From a virus (taxonomy: Duplodnaviria > Heunggongvirae > Uroviricota > Caudoviricetes), in IMG/VR virus record IMGVR_UViG_2576861193_000002: a stretch of 64,000 bases of DNA; one strand, 5' to 3'. The translations under genes and the position numbers were made by a program. The notes under the pieces were generated by a model. That model saw nothing but the letters and a program-made list of their open reading frames with translations. It made no database searches and was not told the DNA's origin. This document shows positions 7,204-31,043 of this stretch, piece after piece; the stretch's first letter is position 1, and the number at the start of each line of letters is the position of its first letter.

Positions 7204-8140
7204 TTTTCCTCACATATGTCATATAGTAAAGGATTATATATACCGTTGTTTTGGACGCTCAAACAGCGAATCAGATCAAATAAAACGCACATTTGTTAAC
7301 ATTTACACAAAGTCTGCGTGGGATATTCTGAAAGAATATCCATAATGTGGAGAGAATCTATTGAAGTGCATGGTGCCGGGTGCCTCCCGGTGAACAAAAT
7401 GTTCGTGATACCTGTCGGCGACAGAAAAGGTTAATGGTATCACCCCACCGCACAGGGGGATTCACCATGCAGGAGTTTTCTTAGCAAACTCACTGCGCGC
7501 CCGGCAACTCCCAACCACATAAAATGCGGAGTTTGTGGTATTTATGCATATAACTCGCAGGAATTATCTTAAAAAACTGATGTCGATCCGGATTAAAAAG
7601 AAGCAGGTCATCATCAGATGACTGGAAAAAAGGAAAACAAAAAATACTCATCATACAGTTTTGATTGCAGGGATGAGCCTGCTATGCACAATATGCAGAA
7701 TATAAGCAAGATAAAAATATGCAGGCATATTATTTCGGATTTTGTTATTAACACAACCTTTTTAATAATCATTTGGCATACAATAAACCAGCCCAAAAAG
7801 AACCGCCTAAACAGGCGGTTGGTCAATACAAAGGATGCTTCGTCTTTATTATAGTAATCTGAGGCGTCGGGTGTCTTGTATCAGACAACATATTGTCCCG
7901 CTAAACAGCGAATTACAAACCACCCTGCAATGATCTCTCATCTCATTTTATATGAGTTGACGACATCAGGATAACGCATCATCAGCCCCTGCCAAGAAAT
8001 ATCAAAACTCCCGCCAGCAATGTGTTATCACAATAATGTAAAAAAAACACAGCACCGAAACTATAACTGGTCTCTGTTATAATTTGGAGCAGAAAGACCA
8101 GTTGCCCAACTAGCAGCATTCTCCCCTGCTTTCCTGACGT

Positions 8141-8790: not shown

Positions 8791-9077
8791 AAATGACCTT
8801 TCTTTCTCCAGATTTCTTGTGTGCGAAAAACCCCTTCAGCATGCATCAGGCGCAATTCTTCTTTGGTGTAATCGCTGGTTTTTACCCGCCCGTCGATTAG
8901 ATCGTGGCATGAGCTACAGGCTATCGCCGCCTGCATATCGTGTGGTTTTGTCGCTGTTCCGCACGTCCCCGCCAGCCTGTAATGCGCCAGCACAGAGGTT
9001 TCGGGATTGTGATTGCAGTAGCCAGGGATTCTGATCTGGCACATCTGGCCTTTAGCCGCTTTACGTAAATTCACCAT
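8787..9077 (-). CDS. YbcO-like nin-region protein (DUF1364-like, Cys-rich)
   Basis: 96 aa with multiple CxxC/H motifs; translationally coupled to Q. Confidence 0.65.
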   Translation of the reverse strand: MVNLRKAAKGQMCQIRIPGYCNHNPETSVLAHYRLAGTCGTATKPHDMQAAIACSSCHDLIDGRVKTSDYTKEELRLMHAEGVFRTQEIWRKKGHL

Positions 9078-9676
9078 TACGCAAACTCCAGTAGTTGTGC
9101 GGCCACATTTTCAACTTCCTCCTGAGAGGAGAATTTACGGAACAGAATCCAGTTCCACAGCACATTCAGTACAGATTTATAAACCTGCTGAAACTCGACT
9201 TCGTCCACATTCGCAAAAGCGATGGATTTTGCCCGACGCCCACGGCTACCGTCCGGATAAATATGCTCGGTGTAAAATCCGGCCTGAATGGTTACCCACT
9301 CGCGGAAAGCCTCAAACGACTTTAGCAACGCCGTATCCCGGGTTCTACGAGTCGCAACGGTGTTAAGGTATTGCTCTGCGGCATCACTCAGGGCTGGCGT
9401 GTGTTCCCGACCAACTGATTCGCACAGGTAATCAACGAAACCAGACAGCAGTTCTCGTTCGCGAGGCGTGATCGCCCCACCGACCGGAGTCCAGTAATCG
9501 AATCCCAGTTGCAGGAGTTTGAAAAAACGCTTGTGGAATGCGTAGTTACGCACACGCTTAAAGTCTGCGTGTATCCACTCACCTATTTTGATTTGATGCA
9601 GAAAATCGCAACTCTCCGGCGTCGCCGGGAGAAGTAAACCAGAAGAAGTTTGTTTGACCAGTTGTATATGCGCCAT
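9077..9676 (-). CDS. YbcN-like nin-region protein (DUF1367-like)
   Basis: 199 aa; synteny with ybcN-ybcO-Q of lambdoid prophages. Confidence 0.65.
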   Translation of the reverse strand: MAHIQLVKQTSSGLLLPATPESCDFLHQIKIGEWIHADFKRVRNYAFHKRFFKLLQLGFDYWTPVGGAITPRERELLSGFVDYLCESVGREHTPALSDAAEQYLNTVATRRTRDTALLKSFEAFREWVTIQAGFYTEHIYPDGSRGRRAKSIAFANVDEVEFQQVYKSVLNVLWNWILFRKFSSQEEVENVAAQLLEFA

Positions 9677-9949
9677 TTCTCAATCTCTCGATGGCGCAGT
9701 GCAGCAGATGCCAGTTGTTCAGGCTGACGTATAAAGTATAAATAAACTGGTTCCAGTGTAAAGCCCCCACCTTAATGGAATAAAAACCAAACAACAGATT
9801 GCTGGGATACAAACAACGCTTATTATTAAAAGCGGTTAAACAAATTAAATTTTAATGTTATGCAAATTTGTCAGATCACCATAATATCTCATTTGAAAAC
9901 CGCTGAAATAACAATCCTATCAGGATTAATCATATTAAGGTGAGTAAAT

Positions 9950-10036
9950 ATGGAAAACAACAAATCTGCACATTACGCTCCTTTTTTATCTGTAATACTT
10001 TTTGTTTTTTGCTGTGTATGGGCATTATTTTTATAA
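9950..10036 (+). CDS. candidate 28-aa hydrophobic small protein
   Basis: ATG preceded by SD aaggtgag; MENNKSAHYAPFLSVILFVFCCVWALFL; AT-rich intergenic region next to hok. Confidence 0.3.
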   Translation: MENNKSAHYAPFLSVILFVFCCVWALFL

Positions 10037-10113
10037 AAATATTCACAGATAAAATAAACTCGCCGAATCAGGTTAAGTGTGGGTGCGTTGAGGATGCCTG
10101 ACACATCAGAGGC

Positions 10114-10135
10114 GGCGAGGGATTTCTCCCTCGCC
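10114..10135 (-). other. stable stem-loop at 3' end of hok transcript
   Basis: ggcgaggga-tttc-tccctcgcc perfect 9-bp stem just downstream of hok stop. Confidence 0.4.
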
Positions 10136-10144
10136 TAGTCACTC

Positions 10145-10300
10145 TTACTCCTCAGGTTCGTAAGCTGTGAAGACAGCGACCTCCGTCTGACCGGTTCGGA
10201 TTCGCACCTCGCAGAGGTCTTTCCTCGTTACCAGTGCCGTCACTATGACGGTTAAACAGATGACAATCAGTGCGACTAACATCGCCTTTTGCTGCTTCAT
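10145..10300 (-). CDS. hok: Hok/Gef family type I toxin (HokD/RelF-like)
   Basis: MKQQKAMLVALIVICLTVIVTALVTRKDLCEVRIRTGQTEVAVFTAYEPEE; SD aaggag upstream; in-frame upstream extension in the six-frame ORF. Confidence 0.85.
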   Translation of the reverse strand: MKQQKAMLVALIVICLTVIVTALVTRKDLCEVRIRTGQTEVAVFTAYEPEE

Positions 10301-10780
10301 AGCCTGCTTCTCCTTGCCTTCCGGCGCGTAAGAGGCTAACCTACATGTGCAAAGCATGAAATTGGCCTCAGATTAATGTTAAGCGTCTTGCCGGACGCGT
10401 AATGTTATCTGGGGCTTTTCTCTATCTGCCTTTGGTGTTCATGCCTGAGGCAGATAGCCTCAAGCACCCGCAGCAATTCTACTTAACTCCCGTCACCTCG
10501 CCAATATAAAATCAATCAGAAAGGCGATCCATAAGAACAACAGCAAGACAATAAATTGCCATTACAGCCGCAATAGCTAGCGCACATTTGAGAACCAGCA
10601 CGACAACCTCCTGTATTGGACGTACACCAGTTCTGATAAATATGAGGCTGTCTCATCATTGATTCAATATAACTATTGGGTATAGTTTCTGTGATTTTGT
10701 TCTGTAGAAATGGAACACAACAACCAGTCACCACCAGCACTTCTTTAAATACGCCAAGTCCGACGCAAGCTAACCTTCTA

Positions 10781-10804
10781 GTCCGCTTTGAGCGAGGAGC
10801 GGAC
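10781..10804. repeat. hairpin repeat R0 (GTCCGCT-10 nt-AGCGGAC)
   Basis: Same 7-bp stem as copies at 13847 and 17520. Confidence 0.55.
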
Positions 10805-11020
10805 CAAACCCGGCCAACTGACTCTTAAAGGGGCCGCAGGAATTTTTCGTCTGAACTTTCGAAGCTCCTCTCCCTGAAGACAGAAAACTTCTGTGTGCTG
10901 TGGGAATATTGAATCTTTGCCTTAGATATAAATAATTTTATCCCGCCTGAAGTTTACATTATTTTATTTATCTGTTTTTCTAAATCAGACTGCACTCCTT
11001 ACTTAAATCAGGAGCCAGTC

Positions 11021-12220
11021 ATGCCATTTGTTATTTATGTGTTTACTATCAGTGCCTTTGCGCTCGGACTCGCGGAATTTGTCCCCATTGGGCTGACAGA
11101 CGTTATGGCTCAGGGGTTGTGTGTGGGTGTGGAGCAGACCGGGGCAGCGGTTACAACCTATGCACTGGGGGCAACGTTCGCGGCACCCGTACTGTCTGCG
11201 CTGACAGCAAGCTGGAGCCGGAAAAATGTAATGCTTACAACTGCCGTTGTGTTTACTGCCGGTAGTCTGGCGGCCGCGTTTGCAGCCACATTACCTCAGC
11301 TCCTGTTAGCGCGGTTCATTGCTGGTCTGGGACACGGCCTGTTTCTGGCTGCGGCATCCAGTACCGCAGCTCGTCTTGCTGGACCGGGTAAAGCAGGCAG
11401 AGCGGTGGCTGTGGTATTTGGTGGCTTTACTCTGGCGATGGCAATCGGCGTACCGCTGAGTACATGGTTGGGGGGGGTGGTCTCATGGCGTCCAGTTCTC
11501 GGCGCTATTGCCGCTTTTGGCGCGTTCGGATTCCTTGGACTGTTGTTCGGTATGAAAGATCCCGTACGCAGCGTGCCCGGTGAACATAGTGACTCAGCAA
11601 TGCAGAATATCGGCATGCTGTTTAACCGTAAGTTGCTGGCCGGCGCGCTGGTTACGGTGCTGGCGTATGCAGGCTCGTTTACGGATTACACCTTTATCGC
11701 ACCTATTCTGACGCAGGTGACAGGGGTTACCGGAGCAACGGTGAGTCTGTTTATGCTGGTTTACGGTATTACAGCTGCGGTAGGTAATATTCTTGGTGGG
11801 AAACTTACCGACAGCATGGGGGTTAATCGTGCCAATATACTCATCATTAGCGGCATTGTTGTTGTCGTGCTTGGTATGTGGCTGCTGTCATCCTCACCGG
11901 TGAGCATGGGCATTCTGGTTGCGCTGCTGGGTATGGTGACATTTGCCGCAGTGCCGGCACTGCAGGCCCGTCTGATTGGTGTCGCTGAGCAACATGCTCC
12001 TCATGCGCATGGTGTTGCTGCCGGCCTGAATATTGCGGGCTTCAACTCAGGTATAGCGCTGGGATCAGTACTGGGCAGCATTACTATAAGCCACGCCGGT
12101 ATCGTGTATACCGGTATCAGCGGTGCGATTGTTTCTCTGCTCGGCCTGCTGTTGCTGCTTGCACAAATCCGTCGCAGCCACAGTCGTAAATTTCAACAGG
12201 TTAAAATCGTAGGCCAGTAA
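11021..12220 (+). CDS. MFS transporter (cargo gene)
   Basis: 399 aa, ~12 TM, Gly/Ala-rich MFS signature; GC-rich versus surrounding phage DNA. Confidence 0.85.
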   Translation: MPFVIYVFTISAFALGLAEFVPIGLTDVMAQGLCVGVEQTGAAVTTYALGATFAAPVLSALTASWSRKNVMLTTAVVFTAGSLAAAFAATLPQLLLARFIAGLGHGLFLAAASSTAARLAGPGKAGRAVAVVFGGFTLAMAIGVPLSTWLGGVVSWRPVLGAIAAFGAFGFLGLLFGMKDPVRSVPGEHSDSAMQNIGMLFNRKLLAGALVTVLAYAGSFTDYTFIAPILTQVTGVTGATVSLFMLVYGITAAVGNILGGKLTDSMGVNRANILIISGIVVVVLGMWLLSSSPVSMGILVALLGMVTFAAVPALQARLIGVAEQHAPHAHGVAAGLNIAGFNSGIALGSVLGSITISHAGIVYTGISGAIVSLLGLLLLLAQIRRSHSRKFQQVKIVGQ

Positions 12221-12231
12221 AGGGAGGTTAT

Positions 12232-12924
12232 ATGCTTACCCGTGAAAATATGCTTAATGGCACATTTGTCAGGGTGCATGAAGCGCTGCTCCCGGCGAAT
12301 ATGCTCTGGGACGCTGAAAAAATACGCGCATCAATGAACTCTACTCTGGAGGAGCGCCCGACGGGTGCTCCTGTCTGGATATTTGCCTACGGGTCATTGA
12401 TGTGGAATCCCGTGCTGGCGATTGAAGAAATGCAACGGGCCCGTCTGAAAGGATGGCAGCGCAGTTTCTGCATTCGTTTGATATCCGGACGAGCGACTCC
12501 TGATGTCCCCGGCAGGATGTTATCGCTCGACGAAGGTGGAATTACCGAAGGTATTGCGTTCAGACTGCCGGAATCGACTCTTATTAATGAGCTGGAAATT
12601 GTCTGGACGCGCGAGATGATAACCGGTCTTTACCGTCCGGTCTGGGCAGACGTTTCGCTAGGAAACGGTGAGGAAATTCAGGCGCTGGCTTTCGTATCAG
12701 ACAGACTGCATCCGCATTATGAACAGGACAATCTTACAGCGACCGTAGCGTTGAGCATCGCATCTGCCCGTGGAGACATTGGCACGAATGCAGATTATGT
12801 ATGGAAACTGCAGGCCACTCTGGGTGCGTTGGGAATACGGGATGATTACGTGAGTGAACTGGCCCTTGCTCTGCATGAGGCTCCCTGTAACGATAAACTT
12901 CATCAGCGAGGCGCTTCACTATGA
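12232..12924 (+). CDS. ChaC/gamma-glutamylcyclotransferase-like protein
   Basis: 230 aa; IFAYGSLMWNP motif typical of GGCT/ChaC fold. Confidence 0.7.
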   Translation: MLTRENMLNGTFVRVHEALLPANMLWDAEKIRASMNSTLEERPTGAPVWIFAYGSLMWNPVLAIEEMQRARLKGWQRSFCIRLISGRATPDVPGRMLSLDEGGITEGIAFRLPESTLINELEIVWTREMITGLYRPVWADVSLGNGEEIQALAFVSDRLHPHYEQDNLTATVALSIASARGDIGTNADYVWKLQATLGALGIRDDYVSELALALHEAPCNDKLHQRGASL

Positions 12925-13802
12925 GCCATCTGAGCCATCTGCGAACGTTTCTTGAGGCCTATCGCTCTGGCTCCTTTTCAAAGGCGGCAGAACTACTGGG
13001 CATCACTCAGCCCGCGGCGTCACAGCATATCCAGTCTCTTGAGACTCTGGTTGGTAAGCGTCTGTTTATCAGGCAGGCCAGAGGCGTGACGGCAACCGAA
13101 GCTGCGGATGAGCTTGCCCGCTCAGTTTCACCCTTCATTGATGGTCTGGAAGAAAAGCTGTCCTCTTTCCGGTCAGGCTCTGTACGCGGGGGAACAATTA
13201 ATCTGGCAGGACCGCCAGATTTTATTCATTCCCGGCTTGGGACAGTAATGGCTCCACTAATGAAGGAGGGGTATCGCCTACGCTTTCATACCGGCAATAA
13301 GCAACGTATTTATTCCCTTTTGCATGACGGGAGCGCCGATCTCGCTGTTACCGCATCTATGCCTGATGACCGTCTGTACGGCTATGCACATCTACTGACT
13401 GAACGCATGCTCCTTGTTCATGCTCCCGCCATGTCAGAGATCATCGGATCAGAACCTGGTGCTGAAACGCTTGCCTCATTACCGCTGATTGCTTATGACG
13501 AAGAGTTGCCACTGATTAGAGCGCTCTGGGCCTCCATGTTTCAGAGAGCCCCTGAGATGCAGGCTACATTCACCATTCCGGATTTACGTATTATCCGCGA
13601 CTTGGTCTGTGACGGCCACGGGTGGACAGTGCTGCCGGATTATCACTGTGACAATGACCTGAAAAGTGGTCGCCTGATTTCAGTGACACCTGCAGACCTC
13701 GCTCCGACTAATCATCTTTATCTGGTCTGGAACAAAAGGACGGCTAATAACAGCCGAACCGCCTATGTTCGGGATTACATTCTTAAAACGTTTCCGCGTT
13801 GA
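12921..13802 (+). CDS. LysR-family transcriptional regulator
   Basis: 293 aa; N-terminal HTH (…FSKAAELLGITQPAASQHIQSLE…); overlaps previous gene by 4 nt. Confidence 0.85.
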   Translation: MSHLSHLRTFLEAYRSGSFSKAAELLGITQPAASQHIQSLETLVGKRLFIRQARGVTATEAADELARSVSPFIDGLEEKLSSFRSGSVRGGTINLAGPPDFIHSRLGTVMAPLMKEGYRLRFHTGNKQRIYSLLHDGSADLAVTASMPDDRLYGYAHLLTERMLLVHAPAMSEIIGSEPGAETLASLPLIAYDEELPLIRALWASMFQRAPEMQATFTIPDLRIIRDLVCDGHGWTVLPDYHCDNDLKSGRLISVTPADLAPTNHLYLVWNKRTANNSRTAYVRDYILKTFPR

Positions 13803-13846
13803 TGTTTGAAACGGATGATTGGCGATGCGTATCATAAGTTACGTAT

Positions 13847-13870
13847 GTCCGCTTCTGGCACAAAGCAGAC
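13847..13870. repeat. hairpin repeat R1 (GTCCGCT-tctggcacaa-AGCAGAC)
   Basis: 24/30 identical to R2; sits between the LysR and DUF2254-like genes. Confidence 0.55.
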
Positions 13871-13932
13871 GCCCACTCTCACGCGAATGCTTTGCCCTTG
13901 ACTTGCCAACAACCGTATCGCTTGCTCCGCAA

Positions 13933-15225
13933 CTATGGTTTTTTATTAGAATCTTCGCCACTAAATAAATTATAATAAATTGATTTTATTAGATATCTGT
14001 CAGAATCTATATGGTCAGCACGAGTAGCATGCTCTAATGTTTCAAATGCTAGGGTTTGTGCGGCTTCAGCAAAAATTCCAGGCCAACCCTTACTCAGCAT
14101 CGACAGTCCTTTAAGTACCCTTATCTGAATTTCCCTCATACTGGCACCATCGCGCGCAACAGGTGAGAAAAAGTCTTCAAGTAGATCGTTATTCTGAAGT
14201 GGTGCAACATGTACAGAAGGATATTTCACTTCTATTTCATCAGATTTATTCTGCGCGTAAGCGGAAAGTATACGTACACCTCTGCCAATGACATCAATGG
14301 CGGTTCCAGGATCGTTCACTGCGGGGGAAAGGGCTCGGCAGGCTATTTCGGCCATGACGCTAAGACAAAATCGGGGGTCCTGAGCAAATGAACGTACATC
14401 CGAGACAATAATCGTCTCAAGTAAATCGGTGCTGATTGATGACTCCTGGCCCTGACTCAGGTACAAAACTGGCGTGGACGGATGTATGAAACTGCCCGGC
14501 TGCGCCACGAGGTATACATGACGGGGATCATTGGTCAGCAGCTTGCTGAGTTTCACCATATCAACATATTCAACATAGCCAATCTTTTTCGGATAAACTG
14601 CAACCGTTCCTTTCGGCTGTTCATTGTTCTCAAGCCATGGATATCCGCCGAGACAGGGATTTCTTGCTCTCGCAATAAATGTTTCGATGGCCGCCTGTTC
14701 TACTTTTGCCGTTGTCTCACCAACCCTCCCCAGAGAGGTCAAATGCTGTATCCAGCGAAGCAATGTGATGAGGATTAAGGCAATGACAACCAGTGTTACA
14801 ATGAATAAAATGACTCTCCCCCTTTCTCCATAAGCTCCCATATTGAGGGCAATAATCCCTACCAGACTGAAGAGAAAAGAACCGATGAAGGTGGCCAGTA
14901 CATTTTGTGTGGTGACGTCTTCAACAACTAAACGAGTAGCTCTGGGAGTCACATTAGTAGTGGCTGAACCGTAGGCTGTGACCATGATGCTCAGCGAAAA
15001 TGTGGTCACTGCCAGCATACTCGATGCCAGTATGTTCAGAATGTTATCGACTGCTTCCGCACCAACCTTCACGGAAACCGACTCAGGTATCATTGATTTA
15101 AAAAGAATTGATAAAAGGGCCGTTATTATTGCGACAATTGCGAATAACGTTGCCCTGAACCATAGTTTTTTAAATGTCTGCTTCAGCATCCATTTCCAGC
15201 GTGAAATCATTCTGCATTCCCTCAT
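13933..15225 (-). CDS. DUF2254-like membrane protein
   Basis: 430 aa; N-terminal TM helices then soluble domain. Confidence 0.55.
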   Translation of the reverse strand: MRECRMISRWKWMLKQTFKKLWFRATLFAIVAIITALLSILFKSMIPESVSVKVGAEAVDNILNILASSMLAVTTFSLSIMVTAYGSATTNVTPRATRLVVEDVTTQNVLATFIGSFLFSLVGIIALNMGAYGERGRVILFIVTLVVIALILITLLRWIQHLTSLGRVGETTAKVEQAAIETFIARARNPCLGGYPWLENNEQPKGTVAVYPKKIGYVEYVDMVKLSKLLTNDPRHVYLVAQPGSFIHPSTPVLYLSQGQESSISTDLLETIIVSDVRSFAQDPRFCLSVMAEIACRALSPAVNDPGTAIDVIGRGVRILSAYAQNKSDEIEVKYPSVHVAPLQNNDLLEDFFSPVARDGASMREIQIRVLKGLSMLSKGWPGIFAEAAQTLAFETLEHATRADHIDSDRYLIKSIYYNLFSGEDSNKKP

Positions 15226-15273
15226 ATTGCAGCCGGGATAAATAAATGCCGCCTCTGTGGCGGCATGTTGCTG

Positions 15274-17277
15274 TTAACGAACCAGATGCAGGAAGTGCAG
15301 GTGTTTTTCGTACTGGTCCAGTATGTCATTAATCAGCTGTTCCTGATTCCAGCCCATTACATCATAATTTTGGCCGCCCTCTTTGAGATAGACTTCAGCG
15401 CGATAATATCGATGTTGTTCACTCTGCTGCTCATCATTATCCAGCGCAGCGAGCGCGAAGGTCGGTGAGTTATACCCGCGAAGCCTCACTTCATATATAT
15501 AATTCAGCTCGTTGCCCAAATCGACTTCAAGGCGAATACGATCCTCGGCGGCGTCACTGATGTGGCTTATCGTTCCCTGCTTGTTAAGTTCCTCCTGAAC
15601 CAGCGTCATGGCGGGTTGGATAATGTCGTCCATAAAACGTTTCACAAGAGAGCGCTTCGGCAAATACGCGATATTGCGTAACCTTCTCTGCCAGGGAATT
15701 GGGTTACGTGCAGCCGTAGGAGCAATAGTCGCCATGCTAAGGCTTTCACGCTTGGTCAAATCCCGACGCAGGGCTTTTAACAGTCCGTATATGGATATTA
15801 ATAAGATAACTGAGAAGGGCAATGCACTCGCTATCGTTACGGTTTGCAACGCACTCAGCCCCCCTGCGATCAGCAGGGCAATAGCAACAACGCCCATGAG
15901 CGATGCCCAGAAAATTCGCTGCCAGACGGGCGTGTTTGCCACCCCACCTGATGCCAGAGTATCCACAACCATTGCCCCCGAATCAGCAGACGTTACAAAG
16001 AAGACGATGACCATCGCCATTGCAATGAATGACAGCACGGAAGAGAACGGGAAATGCTCCAGGAAATTAAACAGGGCAAGCGCAACATCCTGCTGAACGG
16101 TATTGGCGAGGTCAGTGGCGCCCTGGTTCATGATGAGATAGATGGCGCTGTTTCCAAACACCGTCATCCACATGAGCGTAAAGCCGGCGGGAACAAACAA
16201 CACGCCAGTCACGAACTCACGAATTGTCCTGCCGCGGGAAACGCGTGCAATGAACATACCTACAAACGGCGACCATGAAAGCCACCATCCCCAGTATAAT
16301 AATGTCCAGCCCCCCAGCCAGTTGCTCGACTTGGGTTCATACGCGTAAAGGTTGAACGTTTTACTCACCAGTTCCGACAGATAACCACCCGTATTTTCCA
16401 CAAATGACTTCAGCAGAAGCACAGTGGGACCCAGGCACAAGACCAGCGCCAGGAGCAACACCGCCAGGCCCAGATTAAGCTCAGACAGGATGCGTATTCC
16501 CTTGTCCAGGCCGGACACCACCGAAATCGTCGCTAACCCCGTGATGACCACGATCAAAATGACCTGTACCGTTTCATTGATGGGCACGCCGAAAAGATGG
16601 TTCAAACCGGCATTCACCTGCAATACACCGTAACCCAGCGATGTTGCAACGCCAAAGACAGTGCCTATCACGGCGAAGATATCAACCGCGTGGCCTATAG
16701 GCCCGTAAATGCGATCGCCGATAATGGGATAGAGCGCAGAACGCAGCGTTAAAGGCAGACCGTGACGGTAACTGAAAAAGGCCAGAATCAGCGCCACGAT
16801 GGCATAAATTGCCCATGCGTGCAGACCCCAGTGGAAGAACGTCAGGCGCATGGCTTCCTTCGCTGCCGCAACGGTCTCTGGAGTGCCGACAGGTGGCGAA
16901 AGATAATGCATCACAGGTTCGGCAACGCCAAAGAACATCAGGCCGATCCCCATCCCTGCCGAAAAAAGCATCGCGAACCAGGAGTGGTAGCTGAAATCAG
17001 GCTGCGCATGGTCTGGGCCCAGCTTTATATCACCGTAACGTGAGAGTCCAAGGAACGTGACGCTCAGTAAAATCAGGGCCACAGCAAGTATGTAGAACCA
17101 GCTGGCATTCGTGAAGATTTGTTGCTGAAGTAGTTTAAAATTTTTGTCGGCGACATCCGGGAATACGGCGGCAAAGGCGACAAGAAGGAAAATTAGCAAA
17201 GCAGATGTAAAGAATACCGCTTTGTTAATCTGGCTTGTAGACTTCTTTGGGGTTGTATCATTTTCACTCATAATCAT
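15274..17277 (-). CDS. BCCT-family (betaine/carnitine/choline) transporter
   Basis: 667 aa; 12-TM BCCT-like core with Trp-rich signature (…GGWTLLYWGWWLSWSPFVGMFIARVSRGRTIREF…). Confidence 0.85.
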   Translation of the reverse strand: MIMSENDTTPKKSTSQINKAVFFTSALLIFLLVAFAAVFPDVADKNFKLLQQQIFTNASWFYILAVALILLSVTFLGLSRYGDIKLGPDHAQPDFSYHSWFAMLFSAGMGIGLMFFGVAEPVMHYLSPPVGTPETVAAAKEAMRLTFFHWGLHAWAIYAIVALILAFFSYRHGLPLTLRSALYPIIGDRIYGPIGHAVDIFAVIGTVFGVATSLGYGVLQVNAGLNHLFGVPINETVQVILIVVITGLATISVVSGLDKGIRILSELNLGLAVLLLALVLCLGPTVLLLKSFVENTGGYLSELVSKTFNLYAYEPKSSNWLGGWTLLYWGWWLSWSPFVGMFIARVSRGRTIREFVTGVLFVPAGFTLMWMTVFGNSAIYLIMNQGATDLANTVQQDVALALFNFLEHFPFSSVLSFIAMAMVIVFFVTSADSGAMVVDTLASGGVANTPVWQRIFWASLMGVVAIALLIAGGLSALQTVTIASALPFSVILLISIYGLLKALRRDLTKRESLSMATIAPTAARNPIPWQRRLRNIAYLPKRSLVKRFMDDIIQPAMTLVQEELNKQGTISHISDAAEDRIRLEVDLGNELNYIYEVRLRGYNSPTFALAALDNDEQQSEQHRYYRAEVYLKEGGQNYDVMGWNQEQLINDILDQYEKHLHFLHLVR

Positions 17278-17611: not shown

Positions 17612-18034
17612 TCACTTCAATAAATACCGAACATCCCCCTGATAAAACGACAATATGCGCTGCATAACTTCGCTCTTCCGGCACTCGCGACAGATTATGT
17701 TTAGGCGACTGTCGTAGCGACGTATTTCTCCGTCAGGTAATGACCAGATAAGGTCCGGATCAACCACAACCGGTTTCTTCAGCTTTGCCCTCGATAATTT
17801 TTTGCGGGCATTTTGCCAGTCTTTACGAGCCTGTTCAGACGGGAATAACCCGTAGCCAGAATTGTATACATCGCCACTGGCAACCAGCTCTCTGGCCAGA
17901 ACGCTCATCAGATATCTTGTTGCCCCAGTTTTAGCTTCCAGTTGTCGTAACGTCTCGCGCCCACTCTGGCGTACGAGTTCAAGAACCTGCCCTTTAATTT
18001 TTTCCCGCTCTTCTTGTGTAAAAACTTTTGCCAC
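17612..18034 (-). CDS. hypothetical phage replication-region protein
   Basis: 140 aa ORF immediately downstream of O-like initiator; no recognised helicase-loader motifs. Confidence 0.45.
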   Translation of the reverse strand: MAKVFTQEEREKIKGQVLELVRQSGRETLRQLEAKTGATRYLMSVLARELVASGDVYNSGYGLFPSEQARKDWQNARKKLSRAKLKKPVVVDPDLIWSLPDGEIRRYDSRLNIICRECRKSEVMQRILSFYQGDVRYLLK

Positions 18035-26209: not shown

Positions 26210-26404
26210 ATGAGATATGACAATGTTAAACCATGTCCATTTTGTGGTTGTCCATCAGTAACGGTGAAAGCCATTTCAGGATATTACCGAGCGAAGTGTA
26301 ACGGATGCGAATCCCGAACCGGTTATGGTGGAAGTGAAAAAGAAGCACTCGAAAGATGGAATAAACGAACCACTGGAAATAATAATGGAGGTGTTCATGT
26401 ATAA
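26210..26404 (+). CDS. ralR: restriction alleviation protein RalR (Lar)
   Basis: 64 aa, MRYDNVKPCPFCGCPS… zinc ribbon. Confidence 0.8.
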   Translation: MRYDNVKPCPFCGCPSVTVKAISGYYRAKCNGCESRTGYGGSEKEALERWNKRTTGNNNGGVHV

Positions 26405-26606
26405 AATTACCGCCACTATTGAAAAGGAAGGTGGCACTCCTACTAACTGGACAAGATATTCAAAATCTAAACTAACGAAATCAGAATGCGAAAAAATGCT
26501 CTCAGGTAAAAAAGAAGCAGGCGTTTCCAGAGAGCAGAAAGTAAAACTGATAAATTTTAATTGCGAGAAACTTCAGTCCTCGAGAATTGCATTGTATTCA
26601 AATTAA
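26397..26606 (+). CDS. ydaC: YdaC-like protein
   Basis: 69 aa, MYKITATIEKEGG…; Rac synteny. Confidence 0.7.
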   Translation: MYKITATIEKEGGTPTNWTRYSKSKLTKSECEKMLSGKKEAGVSREQKVKLINFNCEKLQSSRIALYSN

Positions 26607-30886: not shown

Positions 30887-30998
30887 AAAAAAAAGCCGAC
30901 TCATCAAAGTCGGCGTCGTACGAATCAATTGTGCTATGCAGTAATTCAAAAAAGGAAGTAAGACAATATGGAGCGCAACGCCCATCGCTTGACGTTGC
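30887..30998 (-). ncRNA. fnrS: FnrS small RNA
   Basis: Reverse complement reads GCAGGTGAATGCAACGTCAAGCGATGGGCG…GCCGACTTTGATGAGTCGGCTTTTTTTT, matching FnrS as recalled; terminal hairpin + U-run. Confidence 0.8.
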
Positions 30999-31043
30999 AT
31001 TCACCTGCAAGAGAGATATTGCCCTGAATGGGTAGAGAGTTTA

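What the first reader, a model, noticed from the sequence alone, without database searches (positions are those of the whole stretch)
9950..10520. hok-type toxin locus with adjacent 28-aa hydrophobic ORF
A HokD/RelF-like toxin sits between the nin-like genes and the cargo island, with a leader containing fold-back complementarity and a stable 3' stem-loop. The expected Sok-like antisense RNA should be encoded on the plus strand around 10300-10450 but I could not delimit it. Separately, a 28-aa hydrophobic ORF with good SD lies 110 bp away on the opposite strand.
Basis: partly seen in the sequence, partly recalled or inferred. Interest (0 to 1): 0.4.

Follow-up and report, generated by a model that had tools for sequence, protein, structure and literature searches.

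The report
Complete hokD/sok toxin cassette plus unannotated mini-ORF
This is an ordinary, complete copy of the well-known hok/mok/sok toxin-antitoxin cassette (HokD type) inside a Rac prophage of E. coli; the only unrecorded item is a neighbouring 28-codon hydrophobic ORF that is conserved in about a fifth of E. coli genomes, has never been annotated, and does not belong to the hok cassette.

Summary
Window 10081-10481 is a complete hokD-type hok/mok/sok type I toxin-antitoxin cassette on the minus strand. It has a hok promoter, a 392-nt mRNA whose 5' end pairs with its 3' end, a 70-codon mok frame, a 51-aa Hok identical to RefSeq HokD, and a 3' protective stem-loop.

Its promoter is -35 TTGCCT 10314-10319 and -10 TAACCT 10337-10342. 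This rests on alignment with the annotated K-12 sokC. No transcript data were available.

The 28-aa ORF (9950-10036, plus strand) exists. It has a conserved Shine-Dalgarno sequence and is intact in all 91 copies I retrieved. It occurs in 1188 of 5426 complete E. coli genomes, is never annotated, and is absent from a collection of 15 billion proteins. It shows a modest coding signature (15 synonymous versus 18 non-synonymous changes, p=0.014).

The ORF is not part of the hok cassette. It belongs to a ~375-bp module on the nin-gene side of a prophage cargo and defence hotspot, and each element occurs without the other.

Verdict: the hok part is already known. ORF28 is a moderately supported candidate small membrane protein of unknown role. 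Overall interest is low.

The parts
10476..10504 (-). hok promoter: -35 TTGGCG (10504-10499), 17-nt spacer, -10 TAGAAT (10481-10476). The inferred transcription start is about 10469.
   Evidence: The promoter scan gives 9 of 12 matches. The implied start coincides with position 1 of the Rfam hok-leader model.
10078..10469 (-). Full-length hok mRNA, about 392 nt. It contains tac (10469-10458), ucb/anti-SD (~10414-10407), mok SD GAGG (10369-10366, mRNA nt 101-104), the Sok-target hairpin with loop CUUUGCA (YUNR-type UUUG), the hok SD, the coding sequences, the 3' stem-loop and fbi.
   Evidence: Rfam RF01794 scores 116 bits over model positions 1-157. The minimum-free-energy fold pairs the 5' and 3' ends and sequesters the mok SD, with z=-6.9. 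Element positions were computed and match R1, where the mok SD is at nt 104-107 and 19 mok codons precede hok (PMC9841398).
10145..10357 (-). mok (mokD) reading frame: 70 codons, in frame with hok, with 19 codons upstream of the hok AUG.
   Evidence: ORF list. The arrangement is the same as the annotated K-12 mokC/hokC pair, which share a stop codon.
10145..10300 (-). hokD coding sequence: a 51-aa membrane toxin. The Tyr47 codon sits in a UACG context.
   Evidence: Pfam HOK_GEF 83.6 bits. PHROG 251 'MokW-like host killing', E=7e-33. Identical to WP_000813269.1 HokD.
10114..10135 (-). 3' stem-loop GGCGAGGGA-GAAA-UCCCUCGCC. By analogy with R1 it is the protective end of the processed (truncated) hok mRNA.
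   Evidence: It forms in both the full-length and the truncated folds. Its role is taken from R1 mutagenesis (PMC9841398).
10081..10093 (-). fbi (fold-back inhibitory) element CCUCAACGCACCC, complementary to tac with one bulge.
   Evidence: Minimum-free-energy fold and coordinates. Homology with the plasmid-borne hokD cassettes ends exactly here.
10314..10342 (+). Inferred sok promoter: -35 TTGCCT (10314-10319), 17-nt spacer, -10 TAACCT (10337-10342).
   Evidence: It aligns column for column with the sequence upstream of the annotated K-12 sokC and sokB (alignment A3). It fell below the threshold of the consensus promoter scan.
10349..10425 (+). Inferred Sok (SokD) antisense RNA, 77 nt. It has a 5' single-stranded tail of about 15-17 nt covering the mok AUG, a long hairpin (10364-10418) and a U-rich tail CUUUUCUCUAU.
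   Evidence: Both ends were transferred from the annotated sokC (NC_000913 16952-17010) through alignment A3. The fold is -32.9 kcal/mol with z=-5.3. Expression was not tested.
9950..10036 (+). ORF28, MENNKSAHYAPFLSVILFVFCCVWALFL: a candidate single-pass small membrane protein. Its SD AAGGTGAG is at 9937-9944.
   Evidence: 91 of 91 retrieved copies are intact, with 10 protein variants. The region is in 1188 of 5426 E. coli genomes and never annotated. It is not in the protein collection. Synonymous changes are in excess, p=0.014. No family matches.
9700..10075 (.). The 'ORF28 module': a conserved block reaching from upstream of the first nin gene to just past the ORF28 stop. It contains a leftward promoter-like site (TTTACA-16-TATACT, 9762-9735), a 6-bp hairpin (9913-9927), ORF28, and a degenerate copy of the hairpin AAACCCGC-N4-GCGGGTTT (~10050-10072).
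   Evidence: Alignment A2 shows that homology ends after the ORF28 stop or hairpin while the downstream cargo differs. The promoter-like site is conserved in all six loci compared.

Best explanation
Window 10081-10481 is a complete, apparently intact hokD-type hok/mok/sok type I toxin-antitoxin cassette. It sits as a ~400-bp moron in the cargo and defence hotspot between the replication module and the nin/Q module of a Rac prophage variant.

Mechanism, inferred by homology with R1 hok/sok:
1. The hok promoter makes a ~392-nt mRNA that is translationally silent. Its 5' tac element pairs with the 3' fbi element, and the mok Shine-Dalgarno sequence is sequestered by the upstream ucb box.
2. Slow 3' trimming back to the GGCGAGGGA...UCCCUCGCC hairpin refolds the leader. 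This exposes the mok SD and the Sok-target loop.
3. The unstable 77-nt Sok RNA (10349-10425, plus strand) pairs there. It blocks mok translation, and therefore hok translation, and triggers RNase III cleavage.
4. If Sok supply stops, Hok is made and depolarises the inner membrane.

Shown here: all the sequence and structure elements. Inferred: transcription, processing, toxicity, and any biological role such as prophage retention or abortive infection.

The 28-codon ORF is a separate unit. It belongs to a ~375-bp module attached to the nin side of the hotspot. It most likely encodes a small single-pass inner-membrane protein transcribed against the early-right operon (about 0.55-0.6 that it is translated). 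Its function is unknown, and it is not mechanistically tied to hok.
For: hok cassette:
- Hok matches Pfam HOK_GEF at 83.6 bits and is identical to RefSeq HokD.
- The Rfam hok-leader model matches in full at 116 bits. The annotated K-12 hokC and hokB loci score 118 and 110 bits on the hok strand.
- A promoter-like site places the start at model position 1.
- The fold shows tac/fbi pairing, a sequestered mok SD and the 3' hairpin, with z=-6.9. The truncated RNA shows the 5' metastable hairpin.
- The mok SD is at nt 101-104, and 19 mok codons precede hok. R1 has nt 104-107 and 19 codons (PMC9841398).
- The Sok ends and promoter align with the annotated sokC and sokB. The Sok hairpin has z=-5.3.
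- The cassette limits 10081-10481 are defined by phage-plasmid homologues of 86-92% identity.
- K-12 hokD retains only 10056-10314, that is, it lacks the leader and sok. This window therefore holds the complete form.

ORF28:
- It is intact in 91 of 91 copies, and its frame is the only one of six that stays open in both clades.
- The SD is conserved.
- A minimum spanning tree of 12 haplotypes gives 15 synonymous and 18 non-synonymous changes, against an expected synonymous fraction of 0.26 (p=0.014). Variable sites fall 5:7:13 by codon position.

Independence from hok:
- ORF28 is followed by the IteS/IteA system or by DUF1971 instead of hok in some loci.
- hok occurs without ORF28 in K-12, in L098 and on plasmids.
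Against: - No transcript, processing or toxicity data exist for this locus.
- The sok -10 (TAACCT) matches the consensus at only 3 of 6 positions and was missed by the consensus scan.
- The minimum-free-energy fold of the truncated mRNA does not by itself show the tac/ucb rearrangement.
- According to the preprint 10.1101/2025.08.07.668861, the chromosomal hok loci tested in earlier work did not mediate post-segregational killing. 'Intact' therefore need not mean 'active'.
- For ORF28, no conserved nearby plus-strand promoter was found.
- Pairwise pN/pS of 0.25-0.38 is not significant on its own (p=0.12-0.16). ORF survival by chance under 15 random substitutions is 0.21.
- Diversity is limited to two clades within Escherichia and Shigella.
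- No hit was found in the part of the Sakai Ribo-seq small-ORF tables that is held. It is not known whether Sakai carries the ORF.
Confidence: 0.85

Rival explanations
1. ORF28 is not a gene. It is a chance open frame in a T-rich, conserved non-coding segment whose real function lies in DNA or RNA signals of the early-right operon: terminators on the minus strand, the leftward promoter, and the recombination anchor of the cargo hotspot.
For: - The whole 375-bp block is conserved, not only the ORF.
- The strongest conserved signal is a minus-strand promoter-like site.
- A terminator-type hairpin for the minus strand follows the ORF in related loci.
- No conserved proximal plus-strand promoter was found.
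- The ORF stays intact by chance with probability about 0.2, and the pairwise synonymous excess is not significant.
- It has never been annotated and is absent from protein collections.
Against: - All 91 copies are intact, with ATG and SD kept.
- Only this frame is open in both clades.
- The tree-wide synonymous excess has p=0.014, and variation by codon position is 5:7:13.
- Replacements keep the hydrophobic character.
- Its absence from annotation is expected, because 87 nt is below the usual 90-nt cut-off of gene callers.
Confidence: 0.38
2. ORF28 is itself a type I toxin (Ibs/ShoB/TisB-like membrane peptide) with its own antisense RNA. The candidate is a minus-strand transcript from TTTCCA-16-TATGAT (9956-9929) that ends at the weak hairpin at 9834-9817.
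For: - It is a 28-aa peptide with a 19-residue hydrophobic C-terminal stretch.
- A promoter-like site overlaps its start on the other strand, and a terminator-like site lies about 110 nt downstream.
- It sits in a prophage cargo and defence hotspot.
Against: - The putative antisense RNA has no significant structure: z=-1.1, and 28 of 200 shuffles fold as well.
- Its promoter is not conserved in clade B.
- There is no similarity to any toxin family.
- It is not duplicated in tandem, unlike many type I loci.
- It lacks the C-terminal charged residues typical of several such toxins. This last point rests on my own knowledge.
Confidence: 0.06
3. The hok cassette is an evolutionary relic that is structurally intact but functionally silent. 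Hok is never released, or Sok is not made. This would resemble the chromosomal hok loci reported not to give post-segregational killing.
For: [quoted passage not shown]
- The hok promoter (9/12) and the sok -10 (3/6) are modest.
- The element is fixed in a decaying Rac prophage disrupted by IS elements.
Against: - No inactivating lesion of the kinds seen in K-12 (IS insertion, truncation, rearrangement) is present. Every element is in place.
- An identical protein occurs on about 1000 contigs.
- The same preprint found the HokD coding sequence toxic when expressed.
- The cassette is maintained on phage-plasmids at 86-92% identity from promoter to fbi.
Confidence: 0.25
4. ORF28 transcription is functionally coupled to hok. 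Its convergent transcript would run into the hok 3' end (fbi and the 3' hairpin, 45-100 nt away) and modulate hok mRNA folding or processing as a second antisense input.
For: - The spacing of 113-119 nt between ORF28 and the hok stop is constant in most loci, including one E. ruysiae locus whose Hok is only 63% identical.
- The intervening hairpin is degenerate in this window, at -5.4 kcal/mol.
- K-12 hokB also has a small ORF, yncP, converging on its 3' end.
Against: - ORF28 and hok each occur without the other.
- In most hok-adjacent copies a good hairpin separates them.
- The constant spacing follows from shared ancestry of one prophage lineage, and the locus sample is biased towards near-identical sequences.
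Confidence: 0.05

Closest known systems
hok/mok/sok (parB) of plasmid R1, the archetypal type I toxin-antitoxin system
   Same: The element order and almost the same coordinates:
- a ~390-400-nt mRNA with tac/fbi end pairing;
- the mok SD GAGG near nt 101-107;
- 19 mok codons before hok;
- a Hok of about 50 aa in the HOK_GEF family;
- a 3' protective hairpin;
- a short antisense RNA covering the mok start, with a single-stranded 5' tail followed by a hairpin and a U-tail.

   Different: - It is carried by a chromosomal prophage, not a plasmid.
- The nucleotide sequence is too diverged for blastn.
- The Sok hairpin is 16 nt longer than the Rfam consensus.
- mok is in frame with hok.
- Activity has not been tested.
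hokC/mokC/sokC and hokB/mokB/sokB of E. coli K-12 (annotated chromosomal hok loci)
   Same: Both K-12 leaders match the same Rfam model at 118 and 110 bits. The sok promoter and both Sok ends align column for column. mokC is an in-frame extension of hokC, like mok here.
   Different: K-12 hokC is flanked by IS186. The K-12 Sok RNAs are 57-59 nt against 77 nt here.
hokD (relF) of the K-12 Qin prophage
   Same: The toxin is the same (HokD), and the sequence from the fbi region to 14 nt upstream of the hok AUG is 94% identical, covering window 10056-10314.
   Different: K-12 hokD lacks its own promoter, tac, ucb, the mok start and the whole sok gene. It sits behind relBE. The window carries the complete, autonomous form.
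Small hydrophobic proteins of E. coli prophages and type I toxins (YnfS of Qin; Ibs, ShoB, TisB), as comparators for ORF28
   Same: Similar size (about 19-30 aa), a single hydrophobic helix, prophage or intergenic location, and missed by gene callers. YnfS is 29 aa and lies in Qin.
   Different: There is no detectable sequence similarity to any of them. No partner antisense RNA was identified. There is no expression evidence.

Membership tests
[quoted passage not shown] | A toxin ORF of about 50 aa belonging to the Hok/Gef family | tested here: met
   Pfam PF01848 scores 83.6 bits against a cut-off of 22. The protein is identical to RefSeq HokD WP_000813269.1.
[quoted passage not shown] | A structured 5' leader of the hok mRNA (tac stem, ucb/anti-SD, Sok-target hairpin) that matches the family covariance model | tested here: met
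   RF01794 matches model positions 1-157 at 116 bits (gathering score 59) on the hok strand. In the K-12 control, the model hits the hok strand at the annotated hokC and hokB loci.
[quoted passage not shown] | Long-range 5'-3' pairing (tac/fbi) that closes the full-length mRNA and sequesters the mok SD | tested here: met
   In the minimum-free-energy structure of 10469->10078, nt 1-12 pair with nt 377-389 and the mok SD pairs with the upstream box. z=-6.9.
[quoted passage not shown] | An overlapping mok reading frame with its own SD, to which hok translation is coupled | tested here: met
   There is a 70-codon ORF at 10145-10357. GAGG lies 8 nt upstream of its AUG, and 19 codons precede the hok AUG, as in R1. 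The coupling itself cannot be tested here.
[quoted passage not shown] | A cis-encoded Sok antisense RNA gene, with promoter, 5' tail complementary to the mok start region, and terminator hairpin | tested here: met
   Sequence and structure only. The promoter and both RNA ends align with the annotated sokC and sokB. A hairpin with a U-tail is present, z=-5.3. Transcription was not observed.
[quoted passage not shown] | A stable 3' stem-loop that becomes the end of the processed, translatable mRNA | tested here: met
   A 9-bp G+C-rich hairpin at 10114-10135 forms in both folds. Processing cannot be tested here.
[quoted passage not shown] | Hok kills or depolarises the cell when Sok decays (post-segregational killing or abortive infection) | not testable with these tools
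   Literature only. The HokD coding sequence was toxic on overexpression, and earlier-tested chromosomal loci did not mediate killing (10.1101/2025.08.07.668861).
Type I toxin (generic), considered for ORF28 | A small hydrophobic toxic peptide | tested here: inconclusive
   It is hydrophobic and 28 aa. Toxicity cannot be tested, and it matches no toxin family.
Type I toxin (generic), considered for ORF28 | A dedicated antisense or divergent antitoxin sRNA | tested here: not met
   The only candidate (minus strand, about 9922->9806) has z=-1.1, and its promoter is absent in clade B.
Bona fide protein-coding small ORF, considered for ORF28 | The frame is maintained and under purifying selection across homologues, with a ribosome-binding site | tested here: inconclusive
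   All 91 copies are intact and the SD is conserved. The synonymous excess has p=0.014 on a minimum spanning tree of 12 haplotypes. Pairwise tests are not significant, and there are only two clades.

The most novel reading that the evidence does not exclude
ORF28 and the second flanking mini-ORF (ORF29, 10512-10601, minus strand, with a perfect AGGAGG SD) are genuinely translated small membrane proteins. They mark the two conserved borders of a cargo and defence hotspot in Rac/Qin-type lambdoid prophages. ORF28 would be a new family of prophage small membrane protein, expressed against the early operon, with a role in exclusion or defence, or in modulating the neighbouring hok transcript.
Probability: 0.2. 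Interest if true: 0.45.

Novelty: already known. Interest (0 to 1): 0.2.

Why it matters
The hok/sok part adds nothing new. It is a textbook system, already annotated as HokD and present in most E. coli genomes. It does give a clean example of the complete ancestral hokD locus, with its own promoter, mok and sok. The K-12 reference copy (relF, behind relBE) has lost these parts.

There are two modest points of value. First, Rfam's 'sok' model actually matches the hok-sense leader, so automated hits give the wrong strand for Sok. Second, two conserved small hydrophobic ORFs flank the variable slot of a prophage defence hotspot and are systematically missed by annotation. In other strains this slot holds hok, IteS/IteA, nuclease/methylase or DUF262/AAA systems. 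If these ORFs are translated, they would add to the catalogue of prophage small membrane proteins. They would also be convenient landmarks for finding the hotspot.

Tried and rejected
1. Looked for the ORF28 peptide in protein resources.
- The exact sequence is not among 15 billion proteins.
- The search for homologous proteins refuses queries under 40 aa.
- Pfam, NCBIfam and PHROGs give only noise.

2. Looked for distant positional homologues upstream of DUF1367 (NinB-like) genes in Gifsy-2, Klebsiella phages and PHB10. Those phages have short same-strand genes there and no ORF28-like ORF. Species-level genome and viral scans find ORF28 only in Escherichia and Shigella.

3. Tested a type I antitoxin-like antisense RNA for ORF28. 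It has no significant fold, and its promoter is not conserved.

4. Tested the 6-bp hairpin 5' of the ORF28 SD for covariation. One compensatory pair and several G.U changes are present, but 67 of 500 shuffles do as well, so it is not significant.

5. Searched for a conserved plus-strand promoter for ORF28 with a weight-matrix scan over both clades. Only a weak distal candidate is positionally conserved (ATGCCA-18-TAAAGT, about 9709-9738).

6. Searched the literature and the Sakai Ribo-seq supplement for the peptides. Nothing was found. The supplement file was truncated when stored.

7. Checked whether ORF28 resembles K-12 YnfS or YncP. It does not.

8. blastn could not reach R1 hok itself. The comparison with R1 therefore rests on published coordinates, not on a direct alignment.
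Full report
**Where we are.** The window is E. coli chromosome. Stretch 9700-10700 is 100% identical to many complete genomes, in which the only annotated feature is hokD. In one collinear genome the annotation shows a Rac prophage variant at ttcA. Reading leftwards on the minus strand the order is:
- intR, xisR, ralR, recET, kilR, sieB, ydaS/T-like genes and DUF977 (17612-18034);
- a 6.5-kb cargo island holding a BCCT transporter, DUF2254, LysR, a gamma-glutamylcyclotransferase and an MFS transporter (11021-17271);
- hokD (10145-10300);
- the nin-type genes DUF1367 (9077-9676), DUF1364 and the Q antiterminator (DUF1133);
- IS-disrupted genes, lysis genes and trkG.

A whole-window Rfam scan agrees with this. 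It finds RalA at 26403-26581, FnrS at 30891-31008, STnc100 at 7314-7500, and the hok leader.

**The hok observation is correct.**
- The 51-aa ORF at 10145-10300 (minus strand) scores 83.6 bits against Pfam HOK_GEF and E=7e-33 against PHROG 251.
- It is identical to RefSeq HokD WP_000813269.1, a sequence seen on about a thousand contigs.
- Rfam RF01794 matches 10469->10295 on the minus strand over its whole length, at 116 bits and E=4e-27.
- The family is named 'sok', but the model is in hok-sense orientation. It ends at the hok AUG. In K-12 it hits the hok/mok strand at hokC and hokB (118 and 110 bits), while the annotated sokC and sokB lie on the other strand. The hit is therefore the hok mRNA leader, not Sok.

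**Anatomy of the cassette.**
- A promoter-like site TTGGCG-17-TAGAAT (10504-10476) puts the start at about 10469, which is position 1 of the Rfam model.
- The 392-nt RNA 10469->10078 folds with z=-6.9.
- Its first 12 nt (tac, GGGUGCUUGAGG) pair with CCUCAACGCACCC at 10093-10081 (fbi).
- The mok SD GAGG (mRNA nt 101-104, window 10369-10366) is paired to an upstream box.
- The 9-bp hairpin GGCGAGGGA-GAAA-UCCCUCGCC (10135-10114) stands just 5' of fbi.
- When the last 36 nt are removed, the 5' end folds into a local hairpin of the kind described as the metastable structure.
- mok is the 70-codon frame 10145-10357. It is in frame with hok, as in the annotated K-12 mokC/hokC pair.
- Nineteen mok codons precede the hok AUG. 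R1 has the same number, and its mok SD is at nt 104-107 (PMC9841398).
- The loop of the Sok-target hairpin (CUUUGCA) contains a YUNR-type UUUG (alignment). The significance of that motif is from my own knowledge of the family.

**Delimiting Sok.** I aligned the plus strand with the K-12 loci and with other hokD-type cassettes.
- The 5' end of the annotated sokC (NC_000913 16952) falls on window 10349, and its 3' end (17010) falls on 10425.
- The upstream boxes are conserved across all seven sequences: TTG(A)CC(T) and GTAAGAGGCTAA(C/T)CT.
- In the window these read -35 TTGCCT (10314-10319), a 17-nt spacer and -10 TAACCT (10337-10342).
- The predicted 77-nt RNA has a single-stranded 5' tail that covers the mok AUG (10357).
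- The tail is followed by a long hairpin and the tail CUUUUCUCUAU. The fold is -32.9 kcal/mol with z=-5.3.
- It is about 18 nt longer than sokC, because the hairpin carries a 16-nt insertion relative to the Rfam consensus.
- This is inference by homology and structure. The -10 is weak by consensus, the generic scan missed it, and no transcript data were available.

**Limits and status of the cassette.**
- HokD-type homologues on plasmids, including IncY types that carry phage antirepressor genes, match 86-92% over window 10481-10081. That span runs from the -10 box to fbi and no further. The mobile unit is therefore about 400 bp.
- K-12 hokD (relF) matches only 10056-10314. It lacks the promoter, tac, ucb, the mok start and sok, and it lies behind relBE. 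The window holds the complete form.
- Homologous sequence, mostly the hok part, is found in 4813 of 5426 complete E. coli genomes, with a median of two places per genome.
- A recent survey reports that hok is enriched in prophages and that the HokD coding sequence is toxic when expressed. It also reports that the chromosomal loci tested earlier did not give post-segregational killing (10.1101/2025.08.07.668861).
- Nothing in this part is new.

**The 28-aa ORF.**
- It is present as described: 9950-10036 on the plus strand, MENNKSAHYAPFLSVILFVFCCVWALFL, with SD AAGGTGAG 5 nt before the ATG. It converges on hok, and the two stop codons are 108 nt apart.
- The region is found in 1188 of 5426 E. 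coli genomes at 74-100% identity, with no annotated feature in any listed hit.
- It occurs in four phage records and in 195 IMG/VR stretches.
- Among species-representative genomes it was found only in E. ruysiae and Shigella flexneri.
- The peptide is not in the 15-billion-protein collection. At 87 nt it is below the usual gene-caller minimum; that cut-off is from my own knowledge.
- It matches no Pfam, NCBIfam or PHROG family.

**Is ORF28 coding?**
- All 91 retrieved copies keep ATG, 28 codons and the stop. There are 10 protein variants in two clades that are 75-79% identical.
- Its frame is the only one of six that stays open in both clades.
- Between clades pN/pS is 0.25-0.38. Taken alone this is not significant: the synonymous excess has p=0.12-0.16, and the chance that the ORF survives 15 random substitutions is 0.21.
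- Over a minimum spanning tree of the 12 haplotypes there are 15 synonymous and 18 non-synonymous changes. The expected synonymous fraction is 0.26, giving a one-sided binomial p=0.014. Variable sites fall 5:7:13 on codon positions 1:2:3.
- The ORF has 12 haplotypes, against 24 for the 87 nt upstream.
- Against coding: I found no conserved proximal plus-strand promoter, and there are no expression data.
- I put the probability that it is translated at about 0.55-0.6.

**ORF28 is not part of the hok system.**
- Homology among loci runs from upstream of the first nin gene (about 9700) to just past the ORF28 stop, and then breaks.
- Downstream of the stop one finds the hok cassette, or DUF1971 with or without a hok, or the IteS/IteA anti-phage system.
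- Upstream, the module is joined either to DUF1367-type or to DUF968/ydfU-type nin regions.
- hok occurs without ORF28 in K-12, in strain FDAARGOS_1298 and on plasmids.
- A hairpin AAACCCGC-N4-GCGGGTTT follows the ORF in most copies. It has a U-rich tail on the minus strand, and on both strands in the IteS context. It therefore looks like the terminator that closes the cargo slot. In this window it is degenerate, at -5.4 kcal/mol.

**The other flank.**
- A 310-bp block (10490-10800) is conserved in 1737 genomes and unannotated in RefSeq.
- It contains a second hydrophobic mini-ORF (10512-10601, minus strand, MLVLKCALAIAAVMAIYCLAVVLMDRLSD) with a GTG start and a perfect AGGAGG SD.
- GenBank submitters have occasionally called it 'membrane protein'.
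- It is frameshifted in one lineage.
- Between these two conserved flanks, different strains carry hok, IteS/IteA, a nuclease plus a methyltransferase, or DUF262/AAA genes. That is the pattern of a prophage defence and cargo hotspot.

**Alternatives considered for ORF28.**
- A type I toxin with its own antisense RNA is unsupported. The only candidate antisense transcript has z=-1.1, and its promoter is missing in clade B.
- Coupling to hok by convergent transcription is not excluded, but the independent distribution of the two elements argues against it.
- A chance ORF in a regulatory segment remains a serious rival, at about 0.38.

**Verdict.**
- The hok/mok/sok locus is a complete, already-known HokD-type cassette.
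- Sok is now delimited by homology to 10349-10425.
- The 28-aa ORF is a real, conserved and unannotated feature with moderate evidence for coding and no evidence for toxicity.
- Overall interest is low (0.2). The residual novelty lies in the two mini-ORFs that flank the hotspot.

Noticed in passing
window 10490-10800, especially 10512-10601 (minus strand): A second small hydrophobic ORF (29 aa, MLVLKCALAIAAVMAIYCLAVVLMDRLSD) lies immediately upstream of the hok promoter. It has a GTG start and a perfect AGGAGG SD at 10612-10607. It sits in a 310-bp block present in 1737 of 5426 E. coli genomes. The block is unannotated in RefSeq, sporadically called 'membrane protein' in GenBank, and frameshifted with a mutated SD in one lineage.
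   Followed up: partly
window 10037-10490 and the equivalent slot in L005, L099, L100, L101, L002, L003: The slot between the ORF28 module and the ORF29 block holds different cargo in different strains:
- the hok cassette;
- DUF1971, with or without a hok;
- the IteS/IteA anti-phage system;
- hok plus an ATP-dependent nuclease and a Dcm methylase;
- DUF262/AAA genes.
This is a defence and cargo hotspot between the replication and nin modules of Rac/Qin-type prophages.
   Followed up: partly
window 9735-9762 (minus strand): A strong promoter-like site, TTTACA-16-TATACT, lies about 60 nt upstream of the DUF1367 start. It is the best-scoring site in all six diverged copies of the module, whatever nin gene follows. 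It may be an internal promoter for the nin/Q genes.
   Followed up: partly
window 9913-9927: A 6-bp hairpin or palindrome, AATCCT-ATC-AGGATT, lies just 5' of the ORF28 SD. Sequence variation in the otherwise invariant upstream region concentrates there, with one T-A to C-G swap and several U.G wobbles. This is not statistically significant: 67 of 500 shuffles do as well.
   Followed up: yes
window 10295-10469; K-12 loci L090 and L091: The Rfam family RF01794 is named 'sok antitoxin', but it models the hok-sense leader and ends at the hok AUG. It hits the strand opposite to the annotated sokC and sokB in K-12. Automated Rfam hits therefore assign Sok to the wrong strand.
   Followed up: yes
window 10160-10162 (minus strand; Tyr47 codon of hokD): The Tyr47 codon UAC is followed by G, giving UACG within CUUACGAA. 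This is the context reported for TadA A-to-I editing that recodes Tyr to Cys in hok mRNAs (literature: 10.1101/2025.08.07.668861). The motif is present here, but editing was not assessed.
   Followed up: no
window 11021-17271: A 6.5-kb cargo island sits inside the Rac prophage between the DUF977 gene and the hok locus. It holds an MFS transporter, a gamma-glutamylcyclotransferase, a LysR regulator, DUF2254 and a BCCT transporter. Only 284 genomes share the junction at about 10800-11020.
   Followed up: no
window 26403-26581, 30891-31008, 7314-7500: Other Rfam hits in the window are RalA (the antitoxin RNA of the RalR type I system of Rac, 225 bits), FnrS (135 bits) and STnc100 downstream of the Q gene (87 bits). 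The window therefore contains two different type I toxin-antitoxin systems in one prophage.
   Followed up: no
L091 177-245 (K-12 yncP): K-12 hokB has an annotated 22-aa small ORF, yncP, that converges on its 3' end and overlaps it. This is a positional parallel to ORF28 and hokD, but the sequences are unrelated and yncP is not hydrophobic.
   Followed up: partly
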